A DNA stretch of 64,000 bases. It comes from a virus. Its lineage: Duplodnaviria > Caudoviricetes. The translations under genes and the position numbers were made by a program. The stretch is from IMG/VR virus record IMGVR_UViG_3300025018_000091; one strand, written 5' to 3'. Each line of letters begins with the position of its first letter. Position 1 is the stretch's first letter. Positions 1,390 through 24,522 of the stretch are shown piece after piece. Under the pieces are notes generated by a model, which saw nothing but the letters and a program-made list of their open reading frames with translations, ran no database searches and was not told where the DNA came from.

Positions 1390-1416
1390 TTATTTTCCCA
1401 TAATAATAGTTAGATA

Positions 1417-1761
1417 GGAGTAAATCTATAAGCGGAGTCCTGTCTATAAATCGAGACAATCATTAATCTTGGCGAACAATTACTCATTCGCTCCAGCGTC
1501 AACCCGGAAACTCAGACGAGTAGTCCTCAATCATTTCCTGTTCGACTTGCAGCACATAGGGTTTGCAAATGCCACTCATATCACTATGAGTGCGGTAGGC
1601 TCTTACCCTGCCTTTTCAACCTTACCATTTTACTGGCGGTATGTTTTCTGTTGCACTTTCCGTCACCTCACAATGCCTGGGTGTTACCCAGTATGTCACT
1701 CTTTGCTGCTCCGACTTTCCTCATATAACCGCCGGTTATATGCGATTGTCCAATCTACTCC
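1417..1761 (-). ncRNA. rnpB: RNase P RNA, bacterial type A
   Basis: Minus strand: GGAGUAGAUU/AAUUUACUCC-type P1, GACAAUCG/UGAUUGUC P2, GAGGAAAGUCGGAG with ACAGGACUCCGCUUAU (P4), CUGGGUAACACCCAG, ACGGAAAGUGCAACAGAAAACAUACCGCC, GGUAAGAGCC, GCAAACCC...GCAAG. Confidence 0.95.
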
Positions 1762-5481: not shown

Positions 5482-6191
5482 GGCTTCTCCCCTATAAAAA
5501 ATAACGTGTCATATAATCTTTTTGGCAAATCATTCCTATTACACCCAGAAAGATGATCTACTCCATTTTTATTGGAAACAATAAAAGCCCTATCTTTTGA
5601 CCATTCCAAACAATTTGCCACTATAATATCTGCACCTGAATGATGCATACTTTTTGTTGCAATATCCGCTAACTCTTCATCAGTCATTCCAACTTGAAGC
5701 TTGAACTTCACAAGCTTGCCTTTGAAGCCCCATGGATTACGAATCTTATCAATAATCTTTTCAGTAGGAACTAACTTCAAAAACAACTCATTAGCTGATG
5801 AAGAAATCTTCTTAGAAGAATCTATTTTCTCCATTCCAAAATATCCTTTTGAATTAGGAATATAAGTTCCCTCAACTTTATAGTCACTTACTGCCGCAGA
5901 ATGAATAACAACATCATAATCATTTGATATAATTTGTTCTTCCATTAAAGCACACAGCTCATCATATGTTTTATATGGAAGTATATTAATGTGCCTTATA
6001 TTTTCAACTAAATGATGATGTGGATTAGATGTAATTAACGTAACTTCATTTTGAAAATGAGAATCAATAGGCGCCTTATAACAAAAATATCTTGCTAATT
6101 CAGCTCCAGTTCTACCTTTAAAGATATTAGAAATACATCTTACCTTATCAATCATTACATTAGTAGAACCGGCAGTTATTAATATTTTCAT
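5478..6191 (-). CDS. coaB: phosphopantothenate-cysteine ligase
   Basis: MKILITAGST..ID.VRCISN...GRTG, HSAAVSDY, LVKFKL, ADIIVAN. Confidence 0.9.
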   Translation of the reverse strand: MKILITAGSTNVMIDKVRCISNIFKGRTGAELARYFCYKAPIDSHFQNEVTLITSNPHHHLVENIRHINILPYKTYDELCALMEEQIISNDYDVVIHSAAVSDYKVEGTYIPNSKGYFGMEKIDSSKKISSSANELFLKLVPTEKIIDKIRNPWGFKGKLVKFKLQVGMTDEELADIATKSMHHSGADIIVANCLEWSKDRAFIVSNKNGVDHLSGCNRNDLPKRLYDTLFFIGEKP

Positions 6192-6493
6192 GGTTTTCCT
6201 CTACTCCTACGTAATCTATCTTTATTCTTTTTAATTGTTACCTTACCGCCAGGATCTTGTTTAGAAATAAACTTAACCATCTTAGCAAAGACTTCATTGG
6301 TCATTAAAACTTCTGGAGTATTGTATTTCTCTTCTAATTCCTTATTGGAAAAACAAGCATGGATTGCTTTGTGGCAATCTCTACAAATTGTCTCTGTAGT
6401 TTTGCCACCCCTAGAACGCGGGACCATATGATGATCTGAAGGATAATAATTAAGTCTTTCGCATATTGGACATATCAAAAAAGAATCATCCAT
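6188..6493 (-). CDS. small HNH nuclease
   Basis: CPICER..SDHHMVPRSRGG....ICRDCHKAIH. Confidence 0.85.
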   Translation of the reverse strand: MDDSFLICPICERLNYYPSDHHMVPRSRGGKTTETICRDCHKAIHACFSNKELEEKYNTPEVLMTNEVFAKMVKFISKQDPGGKVTIKKNKDRLRRSRGKP

Positions 6494-7980: not shown

Positions 7981-8565
7981 TTAATAAGGATACTTCTTCA
8001 TAACCTCATCATCTGTAGGTACGTCTTTATTAACCTTATATAGCGCTCTTGAGATTCTAGAAACGCTTATTCTTTCACCTTTAATACATCTACCAGTATC
8101 ATAAATAGATAAGCCTGATAGTATTCCATACTTCCTGCAACCGTTCATACTTCGATGCATTGCATGGATACCTGCTAACAAACACTTTTGTCTATCAGCA
8201 ATAAGCTCTGGTCCAGTCCAACCTTCTTTGGTTTTTCCTCGACCAATATTCATAGACATCATACACCAACTAGCTCCATTATCTCCTCGTTTTTTACCAG
8301 TAACAATCTCCTGTCTATAACCACCAGTTTCTTCTGATGATATTATTGCAACCAAAGCTGCTTCTTGCGCTCTTGCCCATTTACCACCAAACCATGGTGT
8401 ATGTGATGGATCATATACAATCAATTGTATATGACCCACTACTTCATTAACGTACTCAATGTGAGCAGCTTGAAGTGCTTCATCATTTGGATGCATTCTC
8501 TCTGGAGTAAAATTACCCAAGATAATAGATACCAACCAAATACGTAGTATTTGTACAGCAGTCAT
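7981..8565 (-). CDS. secreted lysozyme/transglycosylase-like protein
   Basis: N-terminal hydrophobic segment, helix ending in SSEETGG, GDNGASWCMMSMN resembling SLT GxMQ region. Confidence 0.4.
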   Translation of the reverse strand: MTAVQILRIWLVSIILGNFTPERMHPNDEALQAAHIEYVNEVVGHIQLIVYDPSHTPWFGGKWARAQEAALVAIISSEETGGYRQEIVTGKKRGDNGASWCMMSMNIGRGKTKEGWTGPELIADRQKCLLAGIHAMHRSMNGCRKYGILSGLSIYDTGRCIKGERISVSRISRALYKVNKDVPTDDEVMKKYPY

Positions 8566-8645
8566 TATACTCTCCTATTAAAATCAACTAATTAAATTTA
8601 TTTAATTAATCTACAGTATGAAGTATAAATGACTAAATATTGGCA

Positions 8646-8721
8646 TGGTGGTACATACTAGAGTTGAACTAGTATTTGCTGTTTATCAGACAACCGTCTT
8701 AGACCGTTGGACCAATGTACC
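8646..8721 (-). tRNA. tRNA-Ile(GAU)
   Basis: GGUACAU/AUGUACC-ACCA; loop CU-GAU-AA; UUCAA T loop. Confidence 0.9.
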
Positions 8722-8727
8722 ATAGAA

Positions 8728-8891
8728 GAAACAACTAAAATTTGAGTGATAGCATGCCTTTCGGCATCATCGCGTCTACCATTCCGCCACAATCTCAGAC
8801 CTCTCGGCACGTAGAGAAAGGAGGGATTCGAACCCTCATAACTGTTAAGTTAATGATTTTTCTAAATGTAATCACTACAGGCATTTGTTTC
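8728..8891 (-). ncRNA. Y-RNA-like ncRNA A with circularly permuted class II (Leu-type) tRNA domain
   Basis: GAAACAA-AUGCC-UGUAGUGAU-UACAU ... AUCACUCA-AAUUUUAG-UUGUUUC; inside, in order: variable arm, T arm GAGGG-UUCGAAU-CCCUC, acceptor-like stem, D arm GUGGCGGAAUGGUAGACGCG. Confidence 0.8.
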
Positions 8892-8892
8892 A

Positions 8893-8968
8893 TGGTGGTG
8901 CCCCTCGGGATCGAACCGAGATATCAGGATCTTCAGTCCCGCGCATGAGCCATCACTGCCAGAGCACC
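8893..8968 (-). tRNA. tRNA-Phe(GAA)
   Basis: CGGGA-CU-GAA-GA-UCCUG; CCA. Confidence 0.9.
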
Positions 8969-8990
8969 ATGAAGTCATTTATACGAAAGA

Positions 8991-9066
8991 TGGTGGTACC
9001 TACTGGATTTGAACCAGTGACGCCAAGTTCTTCAGACTTGCGCTCTGCCAACTGAGCTAAGGTACC
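8991..9066 (-). tRNA. tRNA-Phe(GAA)
   Basis: Canonical cloverleaf, CAAGU-CU-GAA-GA-ACUUG; CCA. Confidence 0.95.
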
Positions 9067-9162
9067 ATTGGTGGGGCATATTAGGAATCGGAGCCCCCGT
9101 CCCGAACATTGTTGTCATCCAACATCTCATATCGTAAGATATGATTTAATAATGTTGGCGTC

Positions 9163-9738
9163 CTAAATTTTAGTAAAATCTGCTGTGCTTCCAAAATCTA
9201 CATAAACATAATTACCATAAGTGTCTTGCATTATATTATCTGGATTCGCCTCAAAATCCCAAGGATCTAATCCAAGTTCACTCATCAATGTTTCTTTTAA
9301 GTTTTTAACTTTAACCGGATCTTTATTACCTTTAATTGGAAATACCCTGTCAGCAATATAATATGCTATCCATATTGGATTAGCAAATGAAGACACATCA
9401 CCAACTAATAACTTTTGACCTACCCTTACAGCTATTCCAGAATTATAAACATTGGTTATATGCTCTGACTTAATTGATTCCAATCCCTTAAGAAAAGAAA
9501 GAACCTTATCTTTTTTATTATCTGGTAACAAAAAGAACTTAATTATTTTATTATTACCATAATCATAAACTTCGCCTTCTGCACCCGCGCCAAGCATTTC
9601 CCCATGAGGAATTTGAACACCCAAAGATTTTTCAACTATATCTAATAAATCTGTATCATTAGATCTAAAACTATTATATAGTTCATCTAATTTCATTTCC
9701 CTTACAGGATTTTCATAAGATGTGCTCATCTCATCCAT
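9163..9738 (-). CDS. protein kinase-like protein
   Basis: LGAGAEGEVY Gly loop, IIK lysine, NPDNIM catalytic-like loop, VDFG; frame stays open upstream to ~9828. Confidence 0.65.
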   Translation of the reverse strand: MDEMSTSYENPVREMKLDELYNSFRSNDTDLLDIVEKSLGVQIPHGEMLGAGAEGEVYDYGNNKIIKFFLLPDNKKDKVLSFLKGLESIKSEHITNVYNSGIAVRVGQKLLVGDVSSFANPIWIAYYIADRVFPIKGNKDPVKVKNLKETLMSELGLDPWDFEANPDNIMQDTYGNYVYVDFGSTADFTKI

Positions 9739-9807
9739 CTCTTTTAATTTATCAAGATTAGAAATGAACCTATCTAAATCAAATAAGGTTGCATTTAATG
9801 TTCTATC

Positions 9808-9863
9808 TACAACCCCTTTAACTCCTTGAATTAATATTAATTCAAGGAGTTAAAGGGGTTGTA
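9808..9863. repeat. 56-bp perfect palindrome
   Basis: TACAACCCCTTTAACTCCTTGAATTAAT followed directly by its reverse complement. Confidence 0.95.
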
Positions 9864-10099
9864 TTGTATTATAGATGTTCCATCCTTGAGTTTCAAAAAA
9901 GAGTATATATATTCGCCGGAAGAATCATTTATAAAATCTGAATCTGTAAATACAAAATTATATCCTTTGTATTGAGAACCATTTCCTTCTTTGACTTGTT
10001 GGGCAAAATTATCTAAATCACTAGAGGCTAATGCTAAAAAAATACTCTGCTTGTTTTAATAAACTAACTGCGCGCATAATATAATGGCGTGTTATTAAT

Positions 10100-10210
10100 A
10101 ATTGACTGTACCAGTTTCACTCCTGGCATGGTGTACCTTTCCCAACTATTTCAGGGCGTTACTGTGACGAATTTCACCATAAAGGAATAGCCATCAGATG
10201 CCAGTCAATT
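10100..10210. ncRNA. unassigned structured RNA candidate
   Basis: Closed by AATTGACTG/CAGTCAATT, GC-richer than flanks, internal CTGGCAT/ATGCCAG pairing. Confidence 0.3.
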
Positions 10211-10253
10211 CCAGCGCTTCAATCGAGGTCGGTTCCTCGTACCATAACAGTCA

Positions 10254-10329
10254 TGGGTATACTATTGGACTTGCACCAATTCTTCACCTCGGGAAAGAGG
10301 GAGTGCTTACTACTTACACTAATATATAC
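10254..10329 (-). pseudogene. degenerate tRNA-like gene (6-nt anticodon loop)
   Basis: D arm, T arm UUGG-UGCAAGU-CCAA, CCA; CCUC-UUUCCC-GAGG. Confidence 0.5.
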
Positions 10330-10330
10330 T

Positions 10331-10400
10331 TGATATGTACCTCGGATTTGCACCGAAACTGACGGCTCAGCCGTTATGCAGCTCTTACATCAATACATAT
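10331..10400 (-). pseudogene. degenerate tRNA-like gene (5-nt anticodon loop)
   Basis: AUAUGUA/UACAUAU acceptor, UCGG-UGCAAAU-CCGA T arm. Confidence 0.45.
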
Positions 10401-10510
10401 GCCTTATCTACTTACTGAGTCGGACTCAAATAATATATAAGTTTATGATGTCTGTACACAACAAATATAAACTTGGGGTTCCCTATTCGAATATTCTACG
10501 GAAGTAGATT

Positions 10511-10587
10511 TGGTTGGACAGGTGGGAGTTGAACCCACTTCTAGATGTTTATAAGACATCCCTCCATGACCGATTGAGTTCTGTCCA
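10511..10587 (-). tRNA. tRNA-Ile(UAU)
   Basis: GAUGU-CU-UAU-AA-ACAUC; canonical T arm; CCA. Confidence 0.88.
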
Positions 10588-10599
10588 ATGATCATTTTA

Positions 10600-10676
10600 T
10601 GGTCGTATAGGTGGGAATCGAACCCGACTTCTAACTGCTTGTAAAACAATCCTCCATACCAATTGAGTTCTATACG
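10600..10676 (-). tRNA. tRNA-Val(UAC)
   Basis: AUUGU-UU-UAC-AA-GCAGU; D arm nearly identical to neighbouring Ile(UAU). Confidence 0.85.
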
Positions 10677-10680
10677 ATAA

Positions 10681-10755
10681 TGGCACCCCTGAGCGGAATC
10701 GAACCGCCCTCAATAGCGTGACAAGCTACCCGCCTCACCAGATGCGTACAAGGGT
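10681..10755 (-). tRNA. tRNA-Asp(GUC)
   Basis: GUAGC-UU-GUC-AC-GCUAU; G73; CCA. Confidence 0.88.
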
Positions 10756-11041
10756 ATTCTAAGCATGAATAAAACCATGCCAGAGGTTATACATTATATG
10801 TGCCATCTATCATAGATTTCAAAGTAGTTAATACTTCAATCTTACTAGGATAGCTGACAACAAATGTATTATGCTCATAACTAGCAATTCCAACATATTT
10901 TTGTGTTCGATTGTTATGACTCAACGTTATATCATAATCACACTTATTATACCAATCTAGTATTTCTAGCTTATTCATACATTCTCCATGTTAGATAAAT
11001 CTTTAGTATAAGATAATATGCATTGTTAATTACAAACAATT

Positions 11042-11117
11042 TGGTGGGACCAGAGGGATTTGAACCCTCATCAAACAGATTAAGAGTCTGCTATGTTTCC
11101 ATTGACACCATAGTCCC
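11042..11117 (-). tRNA. tRNA-Lys(CUU)
   Basis: GCAGA-CU-CUU-AA-UCUGU; CCA. Confidence 0.92.
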
Positions 11118-11120
11118 ATA

Positions 11121-11212
11121 CAATTACTACAAGTTCGTTGGCAACAGCGCTTCTTCGCTTCTCTACCTGTCTTATTGAGTTCATCAATTGTGCAACTTAC
11201 ACCAAGTAATTG
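11121..11212 (-). ncRNA. tRNA-derived ncRNA candidate, family 2 copy 1
   Basis: CAAUUACU/AGUAAUUG closing stem, D-arm-like UGGUGUAAG..GCAC, similar to 11530-11618. Confidence 0.4.
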
Positions 11213-11271
11213 CAAACACACGATACATCAGAGGCTGGTTAAACTATCACTTGAGTATCTTAGCGTGTCAG

Positions 11272-11342
11272 CGGAACTAGGGGGAATCGAACCCCCGCTT
11301 ATAGATCGACAATCTACAGTCCTACCATTAAACGATAGCTCC
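11272..11342 (-). tRNA. tRNA-Asp(GUC)
   Basis: GUAGA-UU-GUC-GA-UCUAU; CCA not encoded. Confidence 0.9.
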
Positions 11343-11344
11343 TA

Positions 11345-11450
11345 ATATCAGACAAAATATGTAAACATAAGGGAACCATCCCGTCAAGTTGGAATCGAAC
11401 CAAACTAGTTGTTGATTTGGTACAATGTAATGCTTACTGCATTCTGATAT
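11345..11450 (-). ncRNA. Y-RNA-like ncRNA D (T arm only)
   Basis: AUAUCAGA-AUGCA-GUAAGCAU-UACAU ... AUGUUUAC-AUAUUUUG-UCUGAUAU; internal UUGG-UUCGAUU-CCAA. Confidence 0.8.
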
Positions 11451-11525
11451 GGTGGGACCAGAGGGGGTCGAACCCTCACCGAACAGATTAAGAGTCTGGC
11501 ATGCTCCCATTAACACCACGGTCCC
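11450..11525 (-). tRNA. tRNA-Lys(CUU)
   Basis: CCAGA-CU-CUU-AA-UCUGU; paralog of 11042-11117. Confidence 0.92.
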
Positions 11526-11529
11526 ATTC

Positions 11530-11618
11530 GATTACGCTGGAGTCGGCAATAGCAGATCTTTACTATATCTCTCTCCAGTCCTAGAGTCAAGGTCTAGGCG
11601 CTCTTACGCTACATAACC
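11530..11618 (-). ncRNA. tRNA-derived ncRNA candidate, family 2 copy 2
   Basis: GGUUAUG/CGUAAUC closing stem, UAGCGUAAGAGCGC, CUAGA-CCUUGAC-UCUAG hairpin. Confidence 0.4.
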
Positions 11619-11650
11619 AAGGCTGTTTTATTCGAAGTCAACAACCTTTT

Positions 11651-11690
11651 TAGTAGGAAAGGGTGGATTTGAACCACCTTTTACTTTCCC
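11651..11690 (-). ncRNA. tRNA minihelix (acceptor stem plus T arm only)
   Basis: GGGAAAG-UAAAA-GGUGG-UUCAAAU-CCACC-CUUUCCU-A-CUA. Confidence 0.65.
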
Positions 11691-11693
11691 ATA

Positions 11694-11920
11694 ATAAACG
11701 ACAAAAATTTGCTAAGACACCGGCACATTGATGGTCTTTTCAGATTACATCCGTTCGCCCCGCACTTTTGAGTCAGTGACTCTCTAGAAGACAGCATTAC
11801 CTGTTACCTTCGACTTATGAATATTACTATTCAAATTAGCGCCATCGCGTAATTCCTCACGGAATCAGTAGCTACCTTAGGGTCATTATTGATATGTAGT
11901 CCTAACTTGCATTCGTTTAT
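11694..11920 (-). ncRNA. Y-RNA-like ncRNA E (long insert)
   Basis: AUAAACGA-AUGCAA-GUUAGGAC-UACAU ... GUCUUAGC-AAAUUUUUG-UCGUUUAU. Confidence 0.78.
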
Positions 11921-11997
11921 GGCTCCCGCACTAGGGTTTTCACCTAGAACCTCGCACCCTAATCTGGGTGGTACTCTGTATTTTGAGCTATACGGAA
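11920..11997 (-). pseudogene. tRNA-like gene with 6-nt anticodon loop
   Basis: Acceptor, D and T arms and CCA present; CACCC-AGAUUA-GGGUG. Confidence 0.6.
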
Positions 11998-12157
11998 TGG
12001 TCAACGGAAAAGGATTCGAACCTTTGACTACCCAGCACACTCAGAGTAACTATCATCGTCCTCAACATAATATATCGATCTATCATATTTGGTGTCGAAT
12101 AATCTTTAAACTAAATGCTTCTACTACTTGGTGCTCTGACCTCTGAGCTATCCGTCG
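11998..12157 (-). ncRNA. tRNA body with ~90-nt insert replacing the anticodon loop
   Basis: CGACGGA-UAGCUCAGAGGUCAGAGCA ... AAAGG-UUCGAAU-CCUUU-UCCGUUG-ACCA. Confidence 0.7.
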
Positions 12158-12162
12158 ATAAA

Positions 12163-12292
12163 GTAACAACAAGGATTTGAAGAGACTAGTTGTACTAGCG
12201 CCAGCTTCCCCATATAGTGGGGAATAAAGGAATCGGACCTTAATCGTTTATTGTATCAAAATAAAATGTAATCCCTTACATGCATTTGTTAC
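12163..12292 (-). ncRNA. Y-RNA-like ncRNA B with permuted tRNA-like domain
   Basis: GUAACAA-AUGCA-UGUAAGGGAU-UACAU ... AUCCUUG-UUGUUAC; T arm AAGG-UCCGAUU-CCUU then acceptor hairpin UUCCCCA-CUAUA-UGGGGAA. Confidence 0.75.
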
Positions 12293-12293
12293 G

Positions 12294-12376
12294 TGGTTTC
12301 CCCGCTAGGATTTGCACCTAGATTTTCTACTTAGTACGTACTTAAATAGATGTCCTAATTATTAGACGACAGAAAA
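12294..12376 (-). pseudogene. tRNA-like gene with 15-nt anticodon loop
   Basis: D arm UCGUCUAAUAAUUAGGAC, T arm CUAGG-UGCAAAU-CCUAG, CCA; loop UUAAGUACGUACUAA. Confidence 0.6.
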
Positions 12377-12380
12377 ATAC

Positions 12381-12452
12381 AATGCTTCTTCCTGGCTTCT
12401 ATTCCAGAATCTTCGCCCTAAGCGAGATAATAATTTATACTAAAAAAGCATT
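12381..12452 (-). pseudogene. highly degenerate tRNA-like gene
   Basis: AAUGCUU/AAGCAUU closing stem with cloverleaf-like spacing. Confidence 0.3.
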
Positions 12453-12529
12453 TGGTGCTTCCGTTCGCCTTTCGATAGCGAAATCTCCCAGGTTCATTCC
12501 GGGCGTTTTACCATTTAAACTACAGAAAC
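12453..12529 (-). pseudogene. tRNA-like gene with atypical anticodon and T loops
   Basis: GUUUCUG/CGGAAGC-ACCA; loop AAUGAAC lacks U33; 9-nt T loop. Confidence 0.55.
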
Positions 12530-12531
12530 AT

Positions 12532-12677
12532 AAGTGACAAGAAATATAAAGATTTTATTCGGCGCCCTGCACTTTTTCCTTTCGGACCACTTGTGCTATG
12601 ATTAGCTTTCACTAACCAGCAGGATTCGATACCTGCACCATCGGACATTTTTGATGTAATCCTTATTGCATTCACTT
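12532..12677 (-). ncRNA. Y-RNA-like ncRNA F with permuted tRNA-like domain
   Basis: AAGUGA-AUGCA-AUAAGGAU-UACAU ... AUCUUUAU-AUUUCUUG-UCACUU; GCAGG-UAUCGAAU-CCUGC then UGGUUAG-UGAAAG-CUAAUCA. Confidence 0.8.
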
Positions 12678-12763
12678 GGCTCTCAGGGCTGGATTCGAAC
12701 CAACGGTGCATTTCTACGGCGGATTAACAATCCGCTGCCTTGACCTGACTAGGCTACCTGAGA
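12677..12763 (-). tRNA. tRNA-Asn(GUU) with long variable arm
   Basis: GCGGA-UU-GUU-AA-UCCGC; Tyr-like D arm, 14-nt variable region; G73; CCA. Confidence 0.8.
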
Positions 12764-13083
12764 ATATTATACTCAATAAAAGACTCATTAAATATTGACA
12801 CATTTAGTGGAACTAACAACACTCCTTCATGAATCTCGGCATGACAATTATTACAAACTAAGATGCACTTTCGTAATTCAATTACGATTTTATTCCAACT
12901 TTTAGGACTTCCTCTAACTGCTCCCAAACCAAATTCTTTTTTAGAAGGATCTAAATGATGTAAAGATAATGCAGAAGAACATTTATTATATCCACAGAAG
13001 CAACATTTACCTCCCATTGCAAGTATAATTCTCTCTTTTGTGCGTTTTCTCCAACGCTTAACTTTCTCAGATTGCTTACTCAT
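12754..13083 (-). CDS. HNH endonuclease
   Basis: GGKCCFCGY..SLHHLDP...CILVCNNCHAEIH. Confidence 0.88.
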   Translation of the reverse strand: MSKQSEKVKRWRKRTKERIILAMGGKCCFCGYNKCSSALSLHHLDPSKKEFGLGAVRGSPKSWNKIVIELRKCILVCNNCHAEIHEGVLLVPLNVSIFNESFIEYNILR

Positions 13084-13097
13084 ACTTAGATATATAG

Positions 13098-13168
13098 CGA
13101 CCCCCCTCGGACTTGAACCGAGATTCGAAACTTAACAGGCTCCCGTTCTACCTTTGAACTAAAGGGTC
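13098..13168 (-). tRNA. tRNA-Asn(GUU)
   Basis: GGAGC-CU-GUU-AA-GUUUC; CCA not encoded. Confidence 0.85.
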
Positions 13169-13173
13169 AATTA

Positions 13174-13456
13174 TTGATGACAAAATTTGTAAAGATAATG
13201 GCTTTATCTTAAGTAACACTGACGTGCCTCAAGAGCCATAGTGTAAGTATCCCCTCAACACCATATGGAATGTAATTTATCCATTAACATCTTTTGGAAT
13301 ATACAATTAATACTCACTGCATATTTATGAGACATATAGTTTTCTAACGGGTTTACCATTCATTATGTTTCGGAATGGCGGGCATTTCTTATAAATAAGC
13401 ATTACCCATTTATTATCGGTTGTTGTATTTATGTAATCCTTACATGCATTCATCAA
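13174..13456 (-). ncRNA. Y-RNA-like ncRNA C (long AU-rich insert)
   Basis: UUGAUGA-AUGCA-UGUAAGGAU-UACAU ... AUCUUUACA-AAUUUUG-UCAUCAA. Confidence 0.78.
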
Positions 13457-13532
13457 TGGTGGGACCGGAGGGAATTGAACCCTCAACTTTCTGGTTAAAA
13501 GCCAGCTACTCTGCCAATTGAGTTACGGACCC
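13457..13532 (-). tRNA. tRNA-Lys(UUU)
   Basis: CUGG-CU-UUU-AA-CCAG; CCA. Confidence 0.92.
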
Positions 13533-13560
13533 GATTTGCGGATATCATCCGCAAGGGAAA

Positions 13561-13683
13561 CTATTTTTTAGTTGTTTGTTTGGTACTCTTAGAACTCTTG
13601 CTAGAGTTTTTATTGAGTTTTCGCCAACATGGTCGGCAATATTTACCGCCAAGTGAACGAGCAATCTCACATGCTTTACACAT
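13561..13683 (-). CDS. 40-aa basic CxxC..CxxC peptide (not in ORF track)
   Basis: GAGAGGAGGTG RBS then MCKACEIARSLGGKYCRPCWRKLNKNSSKSSKSTKQTTKK*. Confidence 0.55.
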   Translation of the reverse strand: MCKACEIARSLGGKYCRPCWRKLNKNSSKSSKSTKQTTKK

Positions 13684-13761
13684 AGTTCACCTCCTCTCAT
13701 TGAGTGGAGGTCACTAACTGTCAACTAAATAAACCATGAATTCTCCTTGAATAGAATTATT

Positions 13762-13906
13762 GTAGCAACGAAAATTTGTGAGACTATTTTTAACGTGTGC
13801 TGCCGCTACACTAACCCAAGATATAAAGTAAATTGGTCTTGGGTGCGGGAATCGGACCCGCCCTTCGTGCGCCCAATGCAATGTAATCCCAACATGCATT
13901 TGCTAC
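13762..13906 (-). ncRNA. Y-RNA-like ncRNA I with complete permuted T-acceptor-D domain
   Basis: GUAGCAA-AUGCA-UGUUGGGAU-UACAU ... GUCUCACA-AAUUUUCG-UUGCUAC; GCGGG-UCCGAUU-CCCGC, ACCCAAGA/UCUUGGGU hairpin, D arm UAGUGUAGCGGCAGCACAC. Confidence 0.85.
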
Positions 13907-13907
13907 T

Positions 13908-13982
13908 TGGTGGTCTCACTAGGACTTTCACCTAGACCGCCTCCTGAAATGGAGGTATTCATAAAACTTAAACTACAAGACC
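13908..13982 (-). pseudogene. tRNA-like gene with 6-nt anticodon loop
   Basis: GGUCUUG/UGAGACC-ACCA; CCUCC-AUUUCA-GGAGG. Confidence 0.6.
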
Positions 13983-13983
13983 A

Positions 13984-14080
13984 TGACGCTATAAACTTAT
14001 TTATTTGGTAGCGTCAGCGGGACTCGGACCCACAACCTCGTTCTTATAAATGAAATGTAATCCCTACAAGCATTTGCTAT
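13984..14080 (-). ncRNA. Y-RNA-like ncRNA J (5' module, T arm and acceptor hairpin; 3' strand not found)
   Basis: AUAGCAA-AUGCU-UGUAGGGAU-UACAU, GUGGG-UCCGAGU-CCCGC, UGACGCU-ACCA...AGCGUCA. Confidence 0.6.
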
Positions 14081-14081
14081 A

Positions 14082-14154
14082 TGGTCGCGAGACTGTGGGA
14101 TGAGCACAGATTTCCACCCTAAAAGTGGCGAGCTATCATTTACTCCATCTCGCA
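14082..14154 (-). pseudogene. tRNA-like gene, nominal anticodon UUA
   Basis: CCAC-UUUUAGG-GUGG; T loop CUCAUCC is non-canonical; CCA. Confidence 0.55.
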
Positions 14155-14155
14155 A

Positions 14156-14227
14156 TGGATGCGGAGGCAAGAATTGAACTTGCAGAATCTAGCTTATGAG
14201 ACTAGGTTGGGACCGTCTCTCCCCGCT
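14156..14227 (-). tRNA. tRNA-Met(CAU), reduced D arm
   Basis: CUAGU-CU-CAU-AA-GCUAG; A1:A72 mismatch; CCA. Confidence 0.75.
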
Positions 14228-14252
14228 ATAAAATAATGTATGATATACATCA

Positions 14253-14326
14253 TGGTGGAGCGTAGGGGTTACCCTCCCCTTCTTCTGCGGTGCAAGCGCA
14301 GCGTATTCGTATCCTACTCACGCCCC
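14253..14326 (-). tRNA. tRNA-Ala(UGC)
   Basis: G3:U70, CUGCG-CU-UGC-AC-CGCAG; atypical T loop. Confidence 0.82.
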
Positions 14327-14385
14327 ATATTATCTATGCATATAGTGGAATAAAATTAACTTGCACAAAATAGGAAAACTCCACT

Positions 14386-14880
14386 ATGGCTAAAACGAAA
14401 ACTAACTGTTTAAATTGTAACAAAGAAATTTATGTTGAAAACAAAGAAATTAAAAGAGGTTTTGGAAAATTTTGTAATTCCAAATGTTCTAGTGAACATA
14501 GAATTCGTAATAAACCAAAATTGCTAGATAATGTAAATTGTGCCCTATGCAATAAATCTTTTCATATGACCGAAAGTAAAAAAAAGTTATCAAAATCTGG
14601 ATTATATTTTTGTTGTCGAACACATAAAGATGAAGCACAACGCATTGGTGGTATAAAAGAAATTATGCCGCTACATTATGGCACCGCCAAACCAGACAAT
14701 TCTCGTTCTTATAGAAGAATAGCTTTCAATGAAAAAGCTAAAATGTGTGAAAGATGTGGATATGATCAACACGAAGCTGCGATAATTGTTCACCACAAAG
14801 ATAGCAACAGAGACAATAATAATCTAGATAATCTTGAAATATTGTGTGCTAATTGTCACGCTATAGAACATTGGAGCTGA
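14386..14880 (+). CDS. HNH homing endonuclease
   Basis: CERCGY..IVHHKDSNRDNNNLDNLEILCANCHAIEH. Confidence 0.9.
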   Translation: MAKTKTNCLNCNKEIYVENKEIKRGFGKFCNSKCSSEHRIRNKPKLLDNVNCALCNKSFHMTESKKKLSKSGLYFCCRTHKDEAQRIGGIKEIMPLHYGTAKPDNSRSYRRIAFNEKAKMCERCGYDQHEAAIIVHHKDSNRDNNNLDNLEILCANCHAIEHWS

Positions 14881-14903
14881 TGCCCGTGGAACTACATCTC
14901 ATT

Positions 14904-14977
14904 TGGTGACGCATAGGAGAGTCGAACTCCTCTTCGTAGATTGAAAGCCTAATGTCCTACCGATAGACGAACGCGCC
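14904..14977 (-). tRNA. tRNA-Glu(UUC)
   Basis: loop CU-UUC-AA; canonical D and T arms; CCA. Confidence 0.88.
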
Positions 14978-15064
14978 ATAACTATGATAAAATCACCGGA
15001 GTTGCGCCGGATATTGTCCTCACGAACAATATTGAATACCATCGACCCTAATTCTATCAATTTG

Positions 15065-15137
15065 TCAGAGAGAGAGGATTTGAACCTCCACCACATGGAT
15101 CCAAACCATGGACGCTACCAGATTACGCTACTCCCTG
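15065..15137 (-). tRNA. tRNA-Pro(UGG)
   Basis: CAUGG-UU-UGG-AU-CCAUG; CCA not encoded. Confidence 0.88.
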
Positions 15138-15247
15138 ATTGAGTCGCCCTAAGAGATATGTTCTAAACTAACTCCTTGGGCGGATTAGGTTTAGCCAATC
15201 AATCTCTATTATTCCCAAACCTATGCGGGCTGAACATAGGTCTTTCG

Positions 15248-15323
15248 TGGTCGGAATGAGAAGACTCGAACTTCCGATACCTTGTACCCAAAACAAGTGC
15301 CATAGCCACTAGGCGACATTCCG
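15248..15323 (-). tRNA. tRNA-Pro(UGG)
   Basis: CUUGU-UU-UGG-GU-ACAAG; CCA. Confidence 0.92.
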
Positions 15324-15424
15324 ATATACTTCTGCTCTCCAACTTTCTGTTACGCTTCAAAAGTAAAAGGTAACTTCTATTAATAAGTATCGTACGTTAG
15401 ACTTGGAATTAAGTACGTATACTT

Positions 15425-15508
15425 TGGTGGGGACGGTAGGATTCGAACCTACATTGCTCAAGACGGCATCTTTATCGGATGCTGAGAGACCCATCTCTCT
15501 TCGCCCCC
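15425..15508 (-). tRNA. Tyr-type tRNA body with atypical loop (nominal AUA, G33)
   Basis: GCAUC-CGAUAAA-GAUGC, long variable arm, canonical T arm, CCA. Confidence 0.6.
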
Positions 15509-15550
15509 ATTGGATATTAAATTATCAGCGATCAAGACGTCCCATGACGT

Positions 15551-15639
15551 TGGTGCCGCCTGGTGGAATCGAACCACATAGCCACTCGGGGCGCCTGATT
15601 TACAGTCAGGAGATCCTCCCAGGAATCTAGTCAGTCGGC
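15551..15639 (-). tRNA. tRNA-Tyr(GUA)
   Basis: CCUGA-CU-GUA-AA-UCAGG, long variable arm, CCA. Confidence 0.9.
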
Positions 15640-15803
15640 ATTATATTTTGAATTGAATGTATTTATCTCCTAAAGTTATAGAATTTTTAGTTATTAAAGG
15701 TACTGAAACTACATAATTATTACTAATAAAGTAATAAATTGCTGCCGCCAACCCTACATCTCCCTGTTTTTTAGTATTTACTTGATTAAACATGAGACAA
15801 TAT

Positions 15804-15871
15804 TAACTGACAAAATATAGTGTAGATGTTTTTGGTCAAATATCAATGTAATCCACACAAGCATTCAGTTA
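15804..15871 (-). ncRNA. Y-RNA-like ncRNA G (minimal, module only)
   Basis: UAACUGA-AUGCUU-GUGUGGAU-UACAU ... AUCUACAC-UAUAUUUUG-UCAGUUA; 68 nt. Confidence 0.75.
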
Positions 15872-15961
15872 TAGTAAAATTAAACGAATTTAATCGAATA
15901 ACTTTATATCGAACCCTACCAATATTACAGCATACAAATATTGATGATACTTAGGAGTAAT

Positions 15962-16613
15962 ATGAGGCAAGGTAAAATAGCATCTATCACAAACGAAGAA
16001 TTAACAACCCTTATACAAAACAATATATCATTGAAAAACGTTTTGTTATTTTTAAATCTACATCCGAGTAGTGGAAAATAGAAGATTAAAACAAAAATTA
16101 GAACAAGAGAATATCAATTACGATCATATCAAAAATGGTTCGGGATACGATCCCTCCAAAATACATACATTTAGAAAGCATGTATCATTGAATGATGTTC
16201 TTACTCTAAACTCTTCTTATAGTCCAAGATTACTTAAGAAGCGTCTTATAAAAGAAGGTTTATTATTCAACTATTGTAATGTATGTAATATACAGCCACT
16301 TTGGAATAATCTACCACTTCAATTACAGTTAGATCATATCAATGGTAACAATAGAGATAATAGGTTGGAAAATCTAAGATTATTATGCCCTAATTGTCAT
16401 TCCCAGACAGACACATTCGCTGCCAAAAATAAAATCAAAAAGAACAAACCTACAAAAATAGTACAACCACGAAAAACAAAGATAACTTGGCCAGATGACA
16501 ATGAGTTGCTAGATTTAGTAACAAACTCAAATTTTGTTCAAGTTGCCGCAACACTTGGTGTAAGTGATAATGCTATTAGAAAAAGATTAAAAAGAGCGGG
16601 GCTAATCAAATAA
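15962..16613 (+). CDS. HNH homing endonuclease (frameshift near 16075)
   Basis: LQLDHINGNNRDNRLENLRLLCPNCHSQT; upstream frame MRQGKIAS... from 15962 joins through GGAAAATAG indel. Confidence 0.85.
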
Positions 16614-16619
16614 TTAGCT

Positions 16620-16691
16620 TGGCAGGTGTGGTAGGTAACGATCCCACTAGTAGAAGTTTTGGAGGCTTCCCTCTCACCTTGAGTCACACCC
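16620..16691 (-). tRNA. tRNA-Trp(CCA)
   Basis: GAAGC-CU-CCA-AA-ACUUC; G73; CCA. Confidence 0.85.
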
Positions 16692-16877
16692 AAATAATTA
16701 CTATAATTGTAACTTATAATAATCATTCGATAAATTTCGGATTCATTATAAAATAAATCTAAGTGATTTTGGACGTCACTTACATCCCTATTTACCTAGA
16801 GGAAAATAACGATTCCCCTAATCTCTATGCATCGATGCATACTTTGTTAATTAATGTTACACTTAATTAACAAAGCT

Positions 16878-16990
16878 TGGTGCGGAAGGTTGGAATTAAA
16901 CCAACAACCTTCGGGTTAATCATTTAAACTCTAGTGTCGACGTTATCCATCAACTCAAGTCCCGGCGCTCCTTCTTCAAGCCGCTTCCAC
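16878..16990 (-). ncRNA. fMet-like tRNA body with ~45-nt insert in the anticodon loop
   Basis: GUGGAAG/CUUCCGC-ACCA; CCGGG ... UAACCCGAAGGUUGUUGG as in initiator tRNA. Confidence 0.65.
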
Positions 16991-16993
16991 ATA

Positions 16994-17059
16994 AAGGTAA
17001 CAAAAAGTGTAAAGATTGTTTTTTTAATGGTTAGATGTAATCCTTACGGCATTTACCTT
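16994..17059 (-). ncRNA. Y-RNA-like ncRNA H (minimal, module only)
   Basis: AAGGUAA-AUGCC-GUAAGGAU-UACAU ... AUCUUUAC-ACUUUUUG-UUACCUU; 66 nt. Confidence 0.78.
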
Positions 17060-17134
17060 GGTAGGAAAGGTTGGACTTCAACCAACGTCCTGACAACCTT
17101 TACGTTGCCTGCTCTTTCTCTGAGCTACTTCCCT
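17059..17134 (-). pseudogene. tRNA-like gene with 6-nt anticodon loop
   Basis: AGGGAAG/CUUUCCU-ACCA; GCAAC-GUAAAG-GUUGU. Confidence 0.6.
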
Positions 17135-17390
17135 ATATAATCAAACGAGATAATTAATCCTACTATCTATATATCAATATGCCTAAAAGTTTTATCCAGT
17201 TGTTATTTTTATTACAAGACCACCATTTATTATCAAATTAAGTCTTATTGGTCTCCAATCTTGAGTAAGCATATATGAGTTGCCATCTCTCTCAGCAACA
17301 CGAAAATTTATGTTTTTCTCTTTTAAAGTCGCTATTACATCCTCTTCTTTTTTCATAAGAAGACTCCCTATATCAACTCCAACATCTACC

Positions 17391-22319: not shown

Positions 22320-22997
22320 TCATTTCTCTGCATATTTATTTCCTAATTTGGAACAAGATTTGCATTGTGTTGATTTATCATTCAATAAATCAAATGCCGA
22401 TACAATCGCTTCTTTATCACATTCGCAACGGCAATTGTATTTGTTACAACCATCAACTTTACTAATAATTGTCCAAGAATTGAACTTATCACCAACATTA
22501 AGATAAGTTCGTTTCTTTGGTGTAGTGAAAGCTTTCAGCGGCTCCCAGCCTTCTGATATTCTATCTTTTGCCAAAGTATATTGAATATTATATATTTCAC
22601 ACCACTCTACCATTGGTTTGGTTTCAGAACCAATGGTAATTAATTTGGTGGTCCTACGATTGCGAGCCTGCTGTTTATCAGTTGCCCAGCGACAATTATC
22701 AGGAGAATAATTCCCATCACTATCGATCCTATCAATAGAATGTTTGGCAGATGGCTTGAGCCCCATATCTTGATGGAAATTATCAAATCCATCAACACCA
22801 AGCCACCTATCACAAACAGTTATTCCTCTACCACCATAATTCTCATAAAAAGGAGTTTGTGGATAATAACACCTACGTATCATATGATACCAAGCATTAT
22901 ATTCTTTAGTCCTTGAATTTGAATATTTGTACTTAAATCTTGAGGGAAGATTAAAGTTTAATCTGCTCGATTGTGTTGACCCATAAGTCTGCATCAT
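22320..22997 (-). CDS. HNH-type homing endonuclease
   Basis: YNAWYHMIRRC, YGGRGITVCDRW, SIDRIDSDGNYSPDNCRWAT..QQARN. Confidence 0.88.
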   Translation of the reverse strand: MMQTYGSTQSSRLNFNLPSRFKYKYSNSRTKEYNAWYHMIRRCYYPQTPFYENYGGRGITVCDRWLGVDGFDNFHQDMGLKPSAKHSIDRIDSDGNYSPDNCRWATDKQQARNRRTTKLITIGSETKPMVEWCEIYNIQYTLAKDRISEGWEPLKAFTTPKKRTYLNVGDKFNSWTIISKVDGCNKYNCRCECDKEAIVSAFDLLNDKSTQCKSCSKLGNKYAEK

Positions 22998-24522
22998 TTC
23001 CGTACTCCATGAACTTATATATCACGTCAAATACAGAATCGCCGAATCCTCCAATGTTAAGCACGTCATTTCTCGAATGAGCTTGCGTAGTTGCTCCTGG
23101 TTGAATATCAATGCAAACTAGCTTTGCATTTGGGTTGTTTTTCTTAAACTTCTGCCAAGCATACATAGTAGCAGTGCTACGATAACGTCCAGAATCAACC
23201 CAAGACTCGTTATCTGAAACATAAATCACTAGGTCTCCCTTAGCTCCTTCACGATTCAGTTGTTCTAATGGAAGTGAACAGCTAGTTCCACCACCACCAA
23301 ACTTAGCTAGATAAGCTGCATTTGTCATGATAGAATCCATAGGATTCATCTTAGCATTATGCACCCTAGTATCGAAAGGCATAACTCTTGCTTCTGGGTT
23401 CTTACGCAAGATTGCTGCCGCAACCAAAGCTGCAACATCTACACAAGTCGTCTTTGAAGTCACCGTTGAACGGTATCCCGTTACTGGAGAAGCCATCGAA
23501 CCTGAAACGTCTACCATTACATAGACTTTCCCATTGATTTCAGGAATGTTCTCACAAGCTACTTCCGCAGCCTTTTGCAAAGCCATGTTTAACTTCATAG
23601 GAACCTTCTCATCAATGTTTTTGAAAGCCGTGAACAACTGATATGGGAATACCTTTGCTCTACGAATCTGCTCTGGATCTGCCAACTTATCTGCCAAAAC
23701 AGAAACCAACTTAGTATCTTCCAACACACCGTGGCGTGCGAAAGTATTCAAATTCATTCTGACCTGAGTCCAAGTTGCATTGTCAGCAATCTTCTTCCAG
23801 TGTTCCTTTGTTAGAGGCAAAGCAGTCAACATCTGGAAAGGAACGTTAGGGATCTCTCCCTTCATATCCTTCTTGAAGGCTTGGAACTGACGAACCAATG
23901 GGCATAGATCTTTTCTATTATACTCCTTGTCAAGCAAGTAAGCATACATAGCATTTCTATTCTTGTTCGTTGGACGAGGGTGTACCAACTTGATAATATC
24001 TTCTAGCGAAGGATCATTACCAACATTAGCCTTAAACAACTGCTCATCAGTCAACCCCTCAAGATAAGCCTGTATTAACTTCTTTGGACGAGTACCCAAA
24101 GACTTACGTCCCGTTGCTCCAGAACGAACAATCTGCACAAAATTGCGCACCATCTTTGGATTGTCAATGACCTTTGGAAAAATCTTCGAAAGGAGTTCTG
24201 GCGCTCTACCTGCAACCAAAGCTGCAAGAACAGCAGGCATATCCTTCATAAGTCCCTTCTGTCTCGAATACACTGCCAACTTTGCCAAGAACTCAGGACT
24301 AACCTTCTTGGAAAGTTCAAGTACCTTATTCAACTGATCCTTATCAGAAGCATAATACGTACCGTTAAGACAACCAGTCATTGCATACTGCGCAAGCGCA
24401 GCTTTATCACTCAACTTATAAGCCTGTCCTCCAGCTTCATTCACCGTATCGGCTGCTCTCACAACCTTAACTGAAGTTGACTTGCTGTTTGACTTGTTTG
24501 AGAATAGGTTCTTAGATGCCAT
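22951..24522 (-). CDS. rsr: Ro60/Rsr TROVE-domain ribonucleoprotein with C-terminal vWA
   Basis: NEAGGQAY..SDKAALAQYAMTG, MKDMPA, LRNF-like VRNFVQ, HPRP, VMVDVSGSM, GGGTSC, ISDNES-like YVSDNESW. Confidence 0.93.
   Translation of the reverse strand: MASKNLFSNKSNSKSTSVKVVRAADTVNEAGGQAYKLSDKAALAQYAMTGCLNGTYYASDKDQLNKVLELSKKVSPEFLAKLAVYSRQKGLMKDMPAVLAALVAGRAPELLSKIFPKVIDNPKMVRNFVQIVRSGATGRKSLGTRPKKLIQAYLEGLTDEQLFKANVGNDPSLEDIIKLVHPRPTNKNRNAMYAYLLDKEYNRKDLCPLVRQFQAFKKDMKGEIPNVPFQMLTALPLTKEHWKKIADNATWTQVRMNLNTFARHGVLEDTKLVSVLADKLADPEQIRRAKVFPYQLFTAFKNIDEKVPMKLNMALQKAAEVACENIPEINGKVYVMVDVSGSMASPVTGYRSTVTSKTTCVDVAALVAAAILRKNPEARVMPFDTRVHNAKMNPMDSIMTNAAYLAKFGGGGTSCSLPLEQLNREGAKGDLVIYVSDNESWVDSGRYRSTATMYAWQKFKKNNPNAKLVCIDIQPGATTQAHSRNDVLNIGGFGDSVFDVIYKFMEYGNDADLWVNTIEQIKL

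What the first reader, a model, noticed from the sequence alone, without database searches (positions are those of the whole stretch)
13762..13906. Circularly permuted tRNA domains inside members I, A, B and F (YrlA-type architecture)
Seen: in member I the order 5'->3' is module strand, T arm (GCGGG-UCCGAUU-CCCGC), acceptor stem closed as a hairpin (ACCCAAGA/UCUUGGGU), D arm (UAGUGUAGCGGCAGCACAC), module strand. Member A (8728-8891) does the same with a class II Leu-type body, including a variable-arm hairpin UAACU-UAAC-AGUUA and an AUCAU/AUGAU anticodon-stem remnant. B and F show T arm then acceptor hairpin. Known: YrlA RNAs are tRNA mimics in which the Ro-binding stem replaces the anticodon arm. 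Inference: these were built independently from different tRNAs (different D/T sequences), so the module was repeatedly grafted onto tRNA bodies.
Basis: partly seen in the sequence, partly recalled or inferred. Interest (0 to 1): 0.85.

Follow-up and report, generated by a model that had tools for sequence, protein, structure and literature searches.

The report
Phage Y RNAs built like tRNAs
The flagged stretch is a real small RNA gene of a known type, a "Y RNA" whose core is a tRNA with its ends moved to the anticodon side; it is one of ten such RNAs in a giant phage's tRNA gene cluster, and its closed acceptor stem still carries a tRNA's A-CCA tail and leader, so it may be cut open like a tRNA precursor.

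Summary
Confirmed. On the minus strand, 13762-13906 reads: closing-stem strand, T arm, acceptor hairpin, D arm, closing-stem strand. Rfam's YrlA model aligns over its full length, but below threshold (28.9 bits; cutoff 69). In 14 homologues from 12 phage contigs, 18 of 23 base pairs show compensatory changes. Members A, B and F share the plan, and A's class II features covary in relatives.

The closing module matches the Ro60-binding stem of bacterial Y RNAs. A Ro60 gene lies 9 kb upstream, and the phage also encodes RNase P RNA. This is the published YrlA design, already reported in phages, and this scan has noted it many times on other DNA.

My additions:
- In I, J and 16 relatives (18 of 58 members), the acceptor 3' strand is followed by an encoded A-CCA, a free-length linker and a tRNA-type (A/U)AU leader. 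That is the junction of two tandem tRNA genes.
- All 8 close orthologues of I keep it while the stem covaries. This suggests opening by RNase P, as shown for Mycobacterium smegmatis YrlA.

No donor was found among 697 tRNAs; only A's arm resembles tRNA-Leu. No RNA data exist.

The parts
13762..13906 (-). Member I: complete YrlA-type Y RNA (closing stem, T arm, acceptor hairpin with A-CCA, D arm)
   Evidence: Rfam YrlA aligns full length at 28.9 bits. Own model R1 scores 147.6 bits. Covariation in 14 homologues.
13881..13906 (-). I: 5' strand of the Ro60-binding module (terminal stem, AAUGC loop, inner helix, UUACAU)
13845..13861 (-). I: T arm GCGGG-UCCGAUU-CCCGC. The loop has C, not U, at position 55.
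13834..13844 (-). I: acceptor 3' strand ACCCAAG followed by the encoded discriminator A and CCA
   Evidence: The A-CCA is kept in all 8 close orthologues.
13821..13833 (-). I: AU-rich linker ending in AUAU, the same leader type as the phage's tRNA genes; predicted RNase P site at its 3' end
   Evidence: inference
13797..13820 (-). I: acceptor 5' strand CUUGGGU, then UA, then D arm GUGU-AGCGGCA-GCAC
13762..13785 (-). I: 3' strand of the Ro60-binding module
8728..8891 (-). Member A: YrlA-type RNA with a class II-like body (V hairpin, AC-stem remnant, Leu-like D arm, extra GCCGAAAGGC hairpin). No CCA.
12163..12292 (-). Member B: module, 4-bp T arm, acceptor hairpin (A-CUA here; A-CCA in the L008 orthologue), atypical D-position hairpin
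   Evidence: R1 63.5 bits
12532..12677 (-). Member F: module, T arm with an 8-nt loop, 7-8 bp acceptor hairpin closed by GAAA, D-like helix holding a GNRA hairpin
11345..11450 (-). Member D: module, T arm, short hairpin, no D arm
13984..14080 (-). Member J: 5' module strand, T arm, acceptor hairpin with A-CCA. It lacks a D arm and a 3' module strand and runs straight into the odd tRNA at 13908-13982.
   Evidence: R1 56.9 bits
15803..15872 (-). Member G: module-only short Y RNA
16993..17060 (-). Member H: module-only short Y RNA
11694..11920 (-). Member E: module closing about 180 nt with no T arm
13173..13457 (-). Member C: module closing about 240 nt with no T arm
22951..24522 (-). Ro60/Rsr orthologue (TROVE plus vWA), the presumed protein partner
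   Evidence: Pfam PF25045 at 3.6e-19 and PF05731 at 6.8e-12. PDB 2nvo Rsr at 1.5e-19 and phage phiLo Ro60 at 5.6e-16.
1413..1761 (-). Phage-encoded bacterial type A RNase P RNA, a candidate processing enzyme
   Evidence: Rfam RF00010, 278.2 bits

Best explanation
Members I, A, B and F (with D and J) are YrlA-type Y RNAs of a huge phage.

Structure: the 5' and 3' ends pair into a bulged stem that carries the bacterial Ro60-binding motif. The rest folds as a tRNA elbow in permuted order: variable region, T arm, acceptor stem closed as a hairpin, D arm.

Inferred steps:
- The RNAs are transcribed with the tRNA array.
- The enzymes that trim the neighbouring tRNAs release them.
- They bind the phage's own Ro60.
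- They present a tRNA-shaped handle to a tRNA-binding partner, or to host PNPase.

I and J belong to a subclass in which the acceptor hairpin is an intact tRNA 3' end (7 bp, A73, CCA), joined by a disposable linker to a tRNA-type leader and 5' strand. I infer that RNase P and 3' trimming open this hairpin. The product would be a two-piece Y RNA with a free CCA end.

The fold is shown by covariation. Binding, processing and function are inferred.
For: Architecture:
- Rfam YrlA aligns full length.
- A model built only from I's orthologues finds B (63.5 bits), J (56.9), A (39.3) and F (34.9) full length.
- 18 of 23 pairs are compensatory in 14 homologues.
- After rotation, ARAGORN of 16 members as tRNAs at 90% threshold. 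About 3 of 960 shuffled controls were called.

Module:
- Two helices with 10 of 13 pairs compensatory flank the conserved loop AAUGC / AAUUUUUG.
- This matches the GNCGAAN0-1G motif described in PMC4201824.

Partner:
- An intact Ro60 gene lies at 22951-24522.
- The RNAs lie downstream of Ro60 in all 8 related loci.
- Cultured Myxococcus phage Mx1 shows the same pairing.

Processing:
- A-CCA directly follows the 7-nt acceptor strand in 18 of 58 members. About 0.2 would be expected by chance from base composition.
- All 8 close I orthologues keep the A-CCA while the stem changes at nearly every position.
- The linker varies from 3 to 191 nt and ends in (A/U)AU.
- 79% of the phages' CCA-encoding tRNA genes have U at -1 and 65% have A73.
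- The phage encodes RNase P RNA.
- Precedent: M. smegmatis YrlA is cut by RNase P and then receives CCA (PMC4201824).
- A phage Ro60 binds phage Yrl RNAs and host PNPase in vitro (PMC12135203).
Against: - The Rfam score is far below the gathering cutoff (28.9 against 69), and A, B and F gave no YrlA hit at E up to 1.
- Ro60 lies 5.9-14 kb away, not within the 4 kb used in the founding survey.
- The T and D stems are not conserved between paralogues, unlike canonical YrlAs.
- I's T loop has C at position 55.
- In I the helix between module and elbow is only about 3 bp.
- Single-sequence folding z-scores are modest, -0.8 to -2.4.
- Many relatives close the acceptor with GNRA tetraloops, so opening is not general.
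- The U(-1) can pair with A73, which may hinder or shift RNase P cleavage.
Confidence: 0.8

Rival explanations
1. One reading: each tRNA-like body was captured independently from a different tRNA, for instance from a tandem pair of tRNA genes in the array, and the Ro-binding module was grafted on repeatedly.
For: - Class I-like and class II-like bodies coexist. A's D arm repeatedly matches tRNA-Leu best.
- Bodies of different lineages are no more alike than unrelated tRNAs.
- The acceptor loop keeps the A-CCA and leader of a tRNA-tRNA junction.
- T-arm and D-arm types assort independently among homologues. L110:5867 has an I-type acceptor (7 of 8 identical) but a different D arm (10 of 19).
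- HNH endonuclease genes sit inside the array.
- The dimeric-tRNA origin model is published (10.1101/312249).
Against: - No donor tRNA was found among 697; the best ungapped identity is 0.73, inside the background tail.
- The segments are short and covary, so divergence can produce the same pattern.
- A V stem-loop is a normal YrlA feature.
- The lineages are old and orthologous across phages.
Confidence: 0.3
2. Ro60-independent tRNA mimics. The tRNA-shaped core is the active part, acting as a decoy or competitor for host enzymes or defence toxins that act on tRNA acceptor ends or elbows. The conserved stem serves only for stability or processing.
For: - The CCA-bearing acceptor is conserved.
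- Ro60 is not adjacent (5.9-14 kb away).
- Earlier scan notes report similar permuted tRNA-like RNAs beside a different protein (unchecked leads).
Against: - The stem carries the specific Ro60 motif and is shared by module-only members that have no tRNA part.
- Ro60 co-occurs in all related loci.
Confidence: 0.1
3. True circularly permuted tRNA genes. The halves are processed and joined into working tRNAs, as in Cyanidioschyzon merolae.
For: - The 3' half with CCA lies upstream of the 5' half.
- The ends pair in a stem.
- Rotated sequences are called as tRNAs by ARAGORN.
Against: - There is no anticodon stem-loop. Its place is taken by a ~20-bp bulged stem that is conserved in sequence across all members, including members with no tRNA part.
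- The 'anticodons' called lie inside that stem.
- From established knowledge, bacteria and phages are not known to have the splicing-endonuclease pathway that matures permuted tRNAs.
Confidence: 0.03
4. Non-functional debris of tRNA duplication, or a false positive from two adjacent tRNA genes.
For: - The element sits in a dense tRNA array.
- The founding survey warns that dimeric tRNAs can mimic YrlA (PMC4201824).
- J is truncated.
Against: - No tRNA call overlaps I.
- The two acceptor strands are complementary.
- Compensatory change is extensive across 12 contigs.
Confidence: 0.02

Closest known systems
YrlA (Y RNA-like A; Rfam RF02553) of Salmonella Typhimurium and over 250 bacteria and 22 phages (Chen et al. 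2014, PMC4201824; tRNA-like domain structure in Wang et al. 2018, 10.1101/312249)
   Same: - A 5'/3' stem with the Ro60 motif.
- Order V, T arm, acceptor stem-loop, D arm.
- The anticodon arm is replaced by the stem.
- GG in the D loop and a T loop able to form the elbow.
- A Ro60 gene in the neighbourhood.
- The literature already describes these RNAs as resembling circularly permuted tRNAs.
   Different: - Scores below Rfam's cutoff.
- T and D stem sequences differ between paralogues, whereas canonical YrlAs conserve them strongly.
- Ten copies sit in one tRNA array.
- Ro60 is 6-14 kb away.
- I's T loop has C55.
- A subclass carries an encoded A-CCA.
Mycobacterium smegmatis YrlA (PMC4201824)
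   Same: [quoted passage not shown] RNase P cleaves it in vitro, and in vivo it is cleaved, trimmed and given CCA, yielding an opened acceptor end.
   Different: There the CCA is added after cleavage. Here A-CCA and a tRNA-type leader are encoded and conserved. Cleavage has not been tested here.
Thermus phage phiLo Ro60 with Yrl1 and Yrl2 (PMC12135203), and Bas63 gp130, a Ro60-like protein beside the tRNA genes that counters the Ppl defence (PMC11482910)
   Same: A phage-encoded Ro60 with phage-encoded Y-like RNAs close by. The reported roles are capture of host PNPase and counter-defence.
   Different: The phiLo Yrls are described as stem-bulge-stem RNAs, and a tRNA-like domain was not emphasised. 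No RNA has been defined for Bas63. Neither case has a ten-member family.
Circularly permuted tRNA genes of Cyanidioschyzon merolae and some archaea (cited in 10.1101/312249)
   Same: The 3' half lies upstream of the 5' half. The acceptor stem is first a closed loop, and the 5' and 3' ends pair.
   Different: Those mature into real tRNAs with anticodon loops through a splicing endonuclease and ligase. These RNAs have no anticodon loop and carry a Ro60 motif instead.

Membership tests
YrlA-type bacterial/phage Y RNA | 5' and 3' ends pair into a bulged stem carrying the GNCGAAN0-1G (CGAA) Ro60 motif on the 5' strand | tested here: met
   The motif [CU][GA]AAUG is present in all ten members, with exact GACGAAUG in relatives. 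Two helices have 10 of 13 pairs compensatory.
YrlA-type bacterial/phage Y RNA | T arm lies 5' of the D arm, with an acceptor-like stem-loop between them and no anticodon loop | tested here: met
   Met for I and A. F has a D-like helix. B has only an atypical hairpin at the D position. D and J lack a D arm.
YrlA-type bacterial/phage Y RNA | Elbow nucleotides: T loop U54-U55-C56-R57-A58 and GG in the D loop | tested here: inconclusive
   A, D and F have the UUCGA/AUCGA type of T loop. A, F and I have GG in the D loop. I, B and J have UCCGA, with C at position 55, and this is conserved in all I orthologues.
YrlA-type bacterial/phage Y RNA | Score at or above Rfam RF02553 gathering threshold (69 bits) | tested here: not met
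   I scores 28.9 bits. A, B and F are not reported at E up to 1. The Mx1 homologue scores 32 bits.
YrlA-type bacterial/phage Y RNA | Encoded next to a Ro60/Rsr orthologue (within 4 kb in the founding survey) | tested here: inconclusive
   Ro60 is present on the same strand. However, it lies 5.9 kb from the nearest member, 9.0 kb from I and 14 kb from A. The same layout holds in 8 related loci.
YrlA-type bacterial/phage Y RNA | Physically bound by Ro60 | not testable with these tools
   Needs EMSA or co-immunoprecipitation.
YrlA-type bacterial/phage Y RNA | Strongly conserved T- and D-stem sequences (10.1101/312249) | tested here: not met
   I's T stem GCGGG/CCCGC equals the consensus. The paralogues carry GAGGG, GCAGG, AAGG and UUGG T stems and several D-stem types.
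RNase P-opened YrlA (M. smegmatis type) | Seven-bp acceptor stacked on a five-bp T stem, discriminator and CCA available, leader 5' of position +1 | tested here: met
   I, J and 16 relatives have 7 bp, then A73-CCA, then a linker ending (A/U)AU.
RNase P-opened YrlA (M. smegmatis type) | Cleavage in the acceptor loop in vitro and in vivo | not testable with these tools
   No RNA run holds the sequence.
Circularly permuted tRNA gene | Joining the two ends restores a 5-bp anticodon stem with a 7-nt loop and a usable anticodon | tested here: not met
   The ends form a long bulged stem that is conserved in members lacking any tRNA part. ARAGORN has to treat 46-61 nt of it as an intron.

The most novel reading that the evidence does not exclude
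Two linked claims.
1. These phage Y RNAs preserve the birth of YrlA from a tandem pair of tRNA genes. The acceptor hairpin would be the 3' end of tRNA 1 (A73-CCA), the inter-tRNA spacer, and the leader and 5' strand of tRNA 2.
2. The junction is kept because RNase P, possibly the phage's own, opens it. This would give a two-piece Ro60-bound RNA with a free CCA end that could be charged, or could act as bait for host factors that attack tRNA 3' ends.

New bodies, such as the Leu-like one in A, would arise repeatedly in the array.
Probability: 0.3. Interest if true: 0.7.

Novelty: new variant of a known kind. Interest (0 to 1): 0.45.

Why it matters
The role of the tRNA-like half of bacterial Y RNAs is still unknown, and its proposed origin from dimeric tRNA transcripts is only a model. 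A phage lineage that keeps ten Y RNAs inside a tRNA operon gives concrete material to test both questions. Several of these RNAs retain an intact tRNA 3' end and leader at the acceptor junction, and the phage carries its own Ro60 and RNase P RNA.

Phage Ro60 has been linked to capture of host PNPase and to counter-defence, so naming its likely RNA partners is useful.

The basic architecture, however, is already published. It has also been seen many times in this scan, so the finding mainly extends a known family.

Tried and rejected
- Expression and processing: no RNA holder is listed for 8600-17200. The holders are DNA metagenomes (one carries all the sampled words, the other 12 only 5-18%), so ends could not be examined.
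- No whole genome is held for the window. Megablast against phage records found nothing.
- The Rfam gathering search gives no YrlA hit.
- ARAGORN on rotated sequences calls only A at its default threshold. Lower thresholds were needed for the others, and at 85% shuffled controls reach 3.6%, so I do not rely on the B call.
- Donor search: local, global and ungapped comparisons of each body with 101 and then 697 phage tRNAs found nothing above background except a weak, repeated tRNA-Leu match for A.
- RNAalifold proposed pairing ACGAGAA with the 3' U-rich loop instead of the inner Ro helix. I set this aside as a likely A/U-rich artefact, because the short members support the inner helix.
- I looked for a module/body mismatch for A. 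A and its G003 orthologue agree in both parts, so there is no incongruence.
- Pfam scans of 40 ORFs found no RtcB, PNPase or DUF7873 in the window.
- I did not check whether the phage RNase P RNA keeps the CCA-binding loop.

Full report
**Setting**

The window is AT-rich (GC about 0.35) and nearly all its genes lie on the minus strand. No genome is held for it, and it has no close match among deposited phages. It carries:
- 23 ARAGORN tRNA calls, mostly between 7.7 and 17.1 kb;
- a bacterial type A RNase P RNA at 1413-1761 (278 bits);
- an intact 523-aa Ro60/Rsr orthologue at 22951-24522. It matches Pfam vWA_Ro60 at 3.6e-19 and TROVE at 6.8e-12, and PDB Rsr 2nvo at 1.5e-19.

Ro60 relatives of 68-77% identity lie on viral contigs of up to 359 kb. 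The Ro60 of cultured Myxococcus phage Mx1 is 52.7% identical. Earlier scan notes describe this genome as a ~444-kb phage.

**The observation**

On the minus strand, 13762-13906 reads in this order:
- terminal stem and inner helix strand;
- T arm GCGGG-UCCGAUU-CCCGC;
- ACCCAAG, then A-CCA;
- a 13-nt AU-rich linker;
- CUUGGGU;
- D arm GUGU-AGCGGCA-GCAC;
- the complementary module strand.

Rfam's YrlA model aligns over all 114 positions with high posterior probability. The score is only 28.9 bits against a cutoff of 69 (E 0.0068 in 11 kb). The centroid fold reproduces the architecture, with a z-score of -1.9.

**Comparative proof**

I built a covariance model from I and four orthologues only.
- In the window it finds B (63.5 bits), J (56.9), A (39.3), F (34.9) and D (20.6) full length. 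The module-only members G and H score about 30.
- A motif scan of viral contigs returned 80 loci. In the 75 not already sampled, the model finds 46 more hits.
- In an alignment of 14 I-like homologues from 12 contigs, 98.8% of cells pair and 18 of 23 pairs show double changes. None of 500 shuffles reach this, and slid registers pair only 34-54%.
- When members are rotated by tandem doubling, ARAGORN calls A at its default threshold as a 95-nt long-variable-arm tRNA whose 'intron' is the module. It calls I at 95% threshold and 8 of 16 members at 90%. Shuffled controls gave 0, 1 and about 3 calls in 960.

A's V hairpin and anticodon-stem remnant covary in four homologues:
- V hairpin: UAACU/AGUUA, UUAUC/GAUAG, UCGUC/GACGG, AUCU/AGGU.
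- Remnant: AUCAU/AUGAU, ACUGU/ACAGU, UCAAU/GUUGA.

**What the module is**

Thirteen short members align to two helices with 10 of 13 pairs compensatory. These flank an invariant AAUGC loop opposite AAUUUUUG. The 5' strand matches the GNCGAAN0-1G Ro60 motif of bacterial Y RNAs (PMC4201824). In every related locus the RNAs lie downstream of Ro60 in the tRNA array. Mx1 has unannotated homologues at L009 8206-8335 (Rfam YrlA 32 bits) and 8558-8663.

**Known or new**

The layout is the published YrlA design. [quoted passage not shown] It also reports YrlAs in 22 phages (PMC4201824). Phage Ro60-Yrl-PNPase complexes and a Ro60-like counter-defence protein have been reported (PMC12135203, PMC11482910). 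This scan has logged the same kind of RNA on many other genomes, including CCA-capped forms.

**What I add**

In 18 of 58 members examined, the 7-nt acceptor 3' strand is followed by exactly A-CCA. A linker of 3 to 191 nt follows, ending in (A/U)AU, and then comes the 5' strand.
- All 8 close orthologues of I keep the A-CCA although the stem has changed at almost every position.
- The phages' own tRNA genes encode CCA in 487 of 697 cases.
- Among the 278 distinct CCA-encoding tRNA genes, 65% have A73 and 79% have U at -1.

The loop is therefore the junction of two tandem tRNA genes. This fits the dimeric-tRNA origin model. Its conservation suggests opening by RNase P, as shown for M. smegmatis YrlA. 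Other members are sealed by GNRA tetraloops instead, so both forms exist.

**The grafting inference**

Bodies of different lineages are 0.41-0.63 identical, which equals the background between unrelated tRNAs (0.54, sd 0.06). No body has a donor among 697 tRNAs; the best identity is 0.73. A's D arm points to tRNA-Leu in three separate comparisons. T-arm and D-arm types assort independently among homologues. HNH genes sit in the array. This is compatible with segment exchange or repeated capture, but it does not demonstrate either.

**Limits**

No transcript, binding or cleavage data exist. The function is inferred by analogy.

Noticed in passing
window 1413-1761 (-): The phage encodes a bacterial type A RNase P RNA (Rfam 278 bits). 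I saw no rnpA gene among the ORFs scanned. It is relevant as a possible processor of the tRNA and Y RNA array.
   Followed up: partly
window 13908-13982 and 17059-17134 (-); relatives such as L005:17799, L007:18350, L008:16217, L054:4511: These are tRNA-shaped genes with abnormal anticodon loops. ARAGORN-nt 'anticodons' (6-nt loops) here and 4-nt ones (ttaa, taat, ggaa, taaa) in relatives. Each sits directly upstream of a Y RNA.
   Followed up: no
window 13984-14080 (-): Member J has a 5' module strand, a T arm and a CCA-bearing acceptor hairpin, but no D arm and no 3' module strand. Its T arm matches that of the complete RNA L110:5867-6085, so J looks truncated. Alternatively, it may borrow the 3' strand of I.
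   Followed up: partly
L009 8206-8335 and 8558-8663 (OR576727.2 45168-45297 and 45520-45625): Cultured Myxococcus phage Mx1 has two unannotated Y RNA-like genes in its tRNA array. The second lies under an annotated hypothetical CDS. A tmRNA (117.7 bits) lies at L009 9684-10061.
   Followed up: partly
window 14386-14880 (+), 16071-16613 (+), 12754-13083 (-), 6188-6493 (-): Genes for HNH endonucleases (the hit at 12754-13083 is weak, below Pfam's cutoff) are scattered inside the tRNA and Y RNA array. They might drive duplication and segment exchange there.
   Followed up: no
L007:18123-18347, L086:6347-6571, L110:5867-6085, L069:9923-10248: In some orthologues the linker between CCA and the acceptor 5' strand holds an insertion of 87-191 nt containing hairpins. 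If the loop is excised, this would be released as a separate small RNA.
   Followed up: no
window about 13563-13683 (-): A 40-codon ORF with two CxxC pairs and a strong ribosome-binding site lies between member I and tRNA-Lys.
   Followed up: no
window 37295-37409 (-): An Rfam tRNA hit (36.5 bits) spans 115 nt, so this is a tRNA-like gene with a large insertion. It lies far from the main array.
   Followed up: no
window 13845-13861 and all I-group orthologues: The T loop reads UCCGAUU, with C where tRNAs and canonical YrlA have U55. Pseudouridine 55 therefore cannot form in this lineage.
   Followed up: partly
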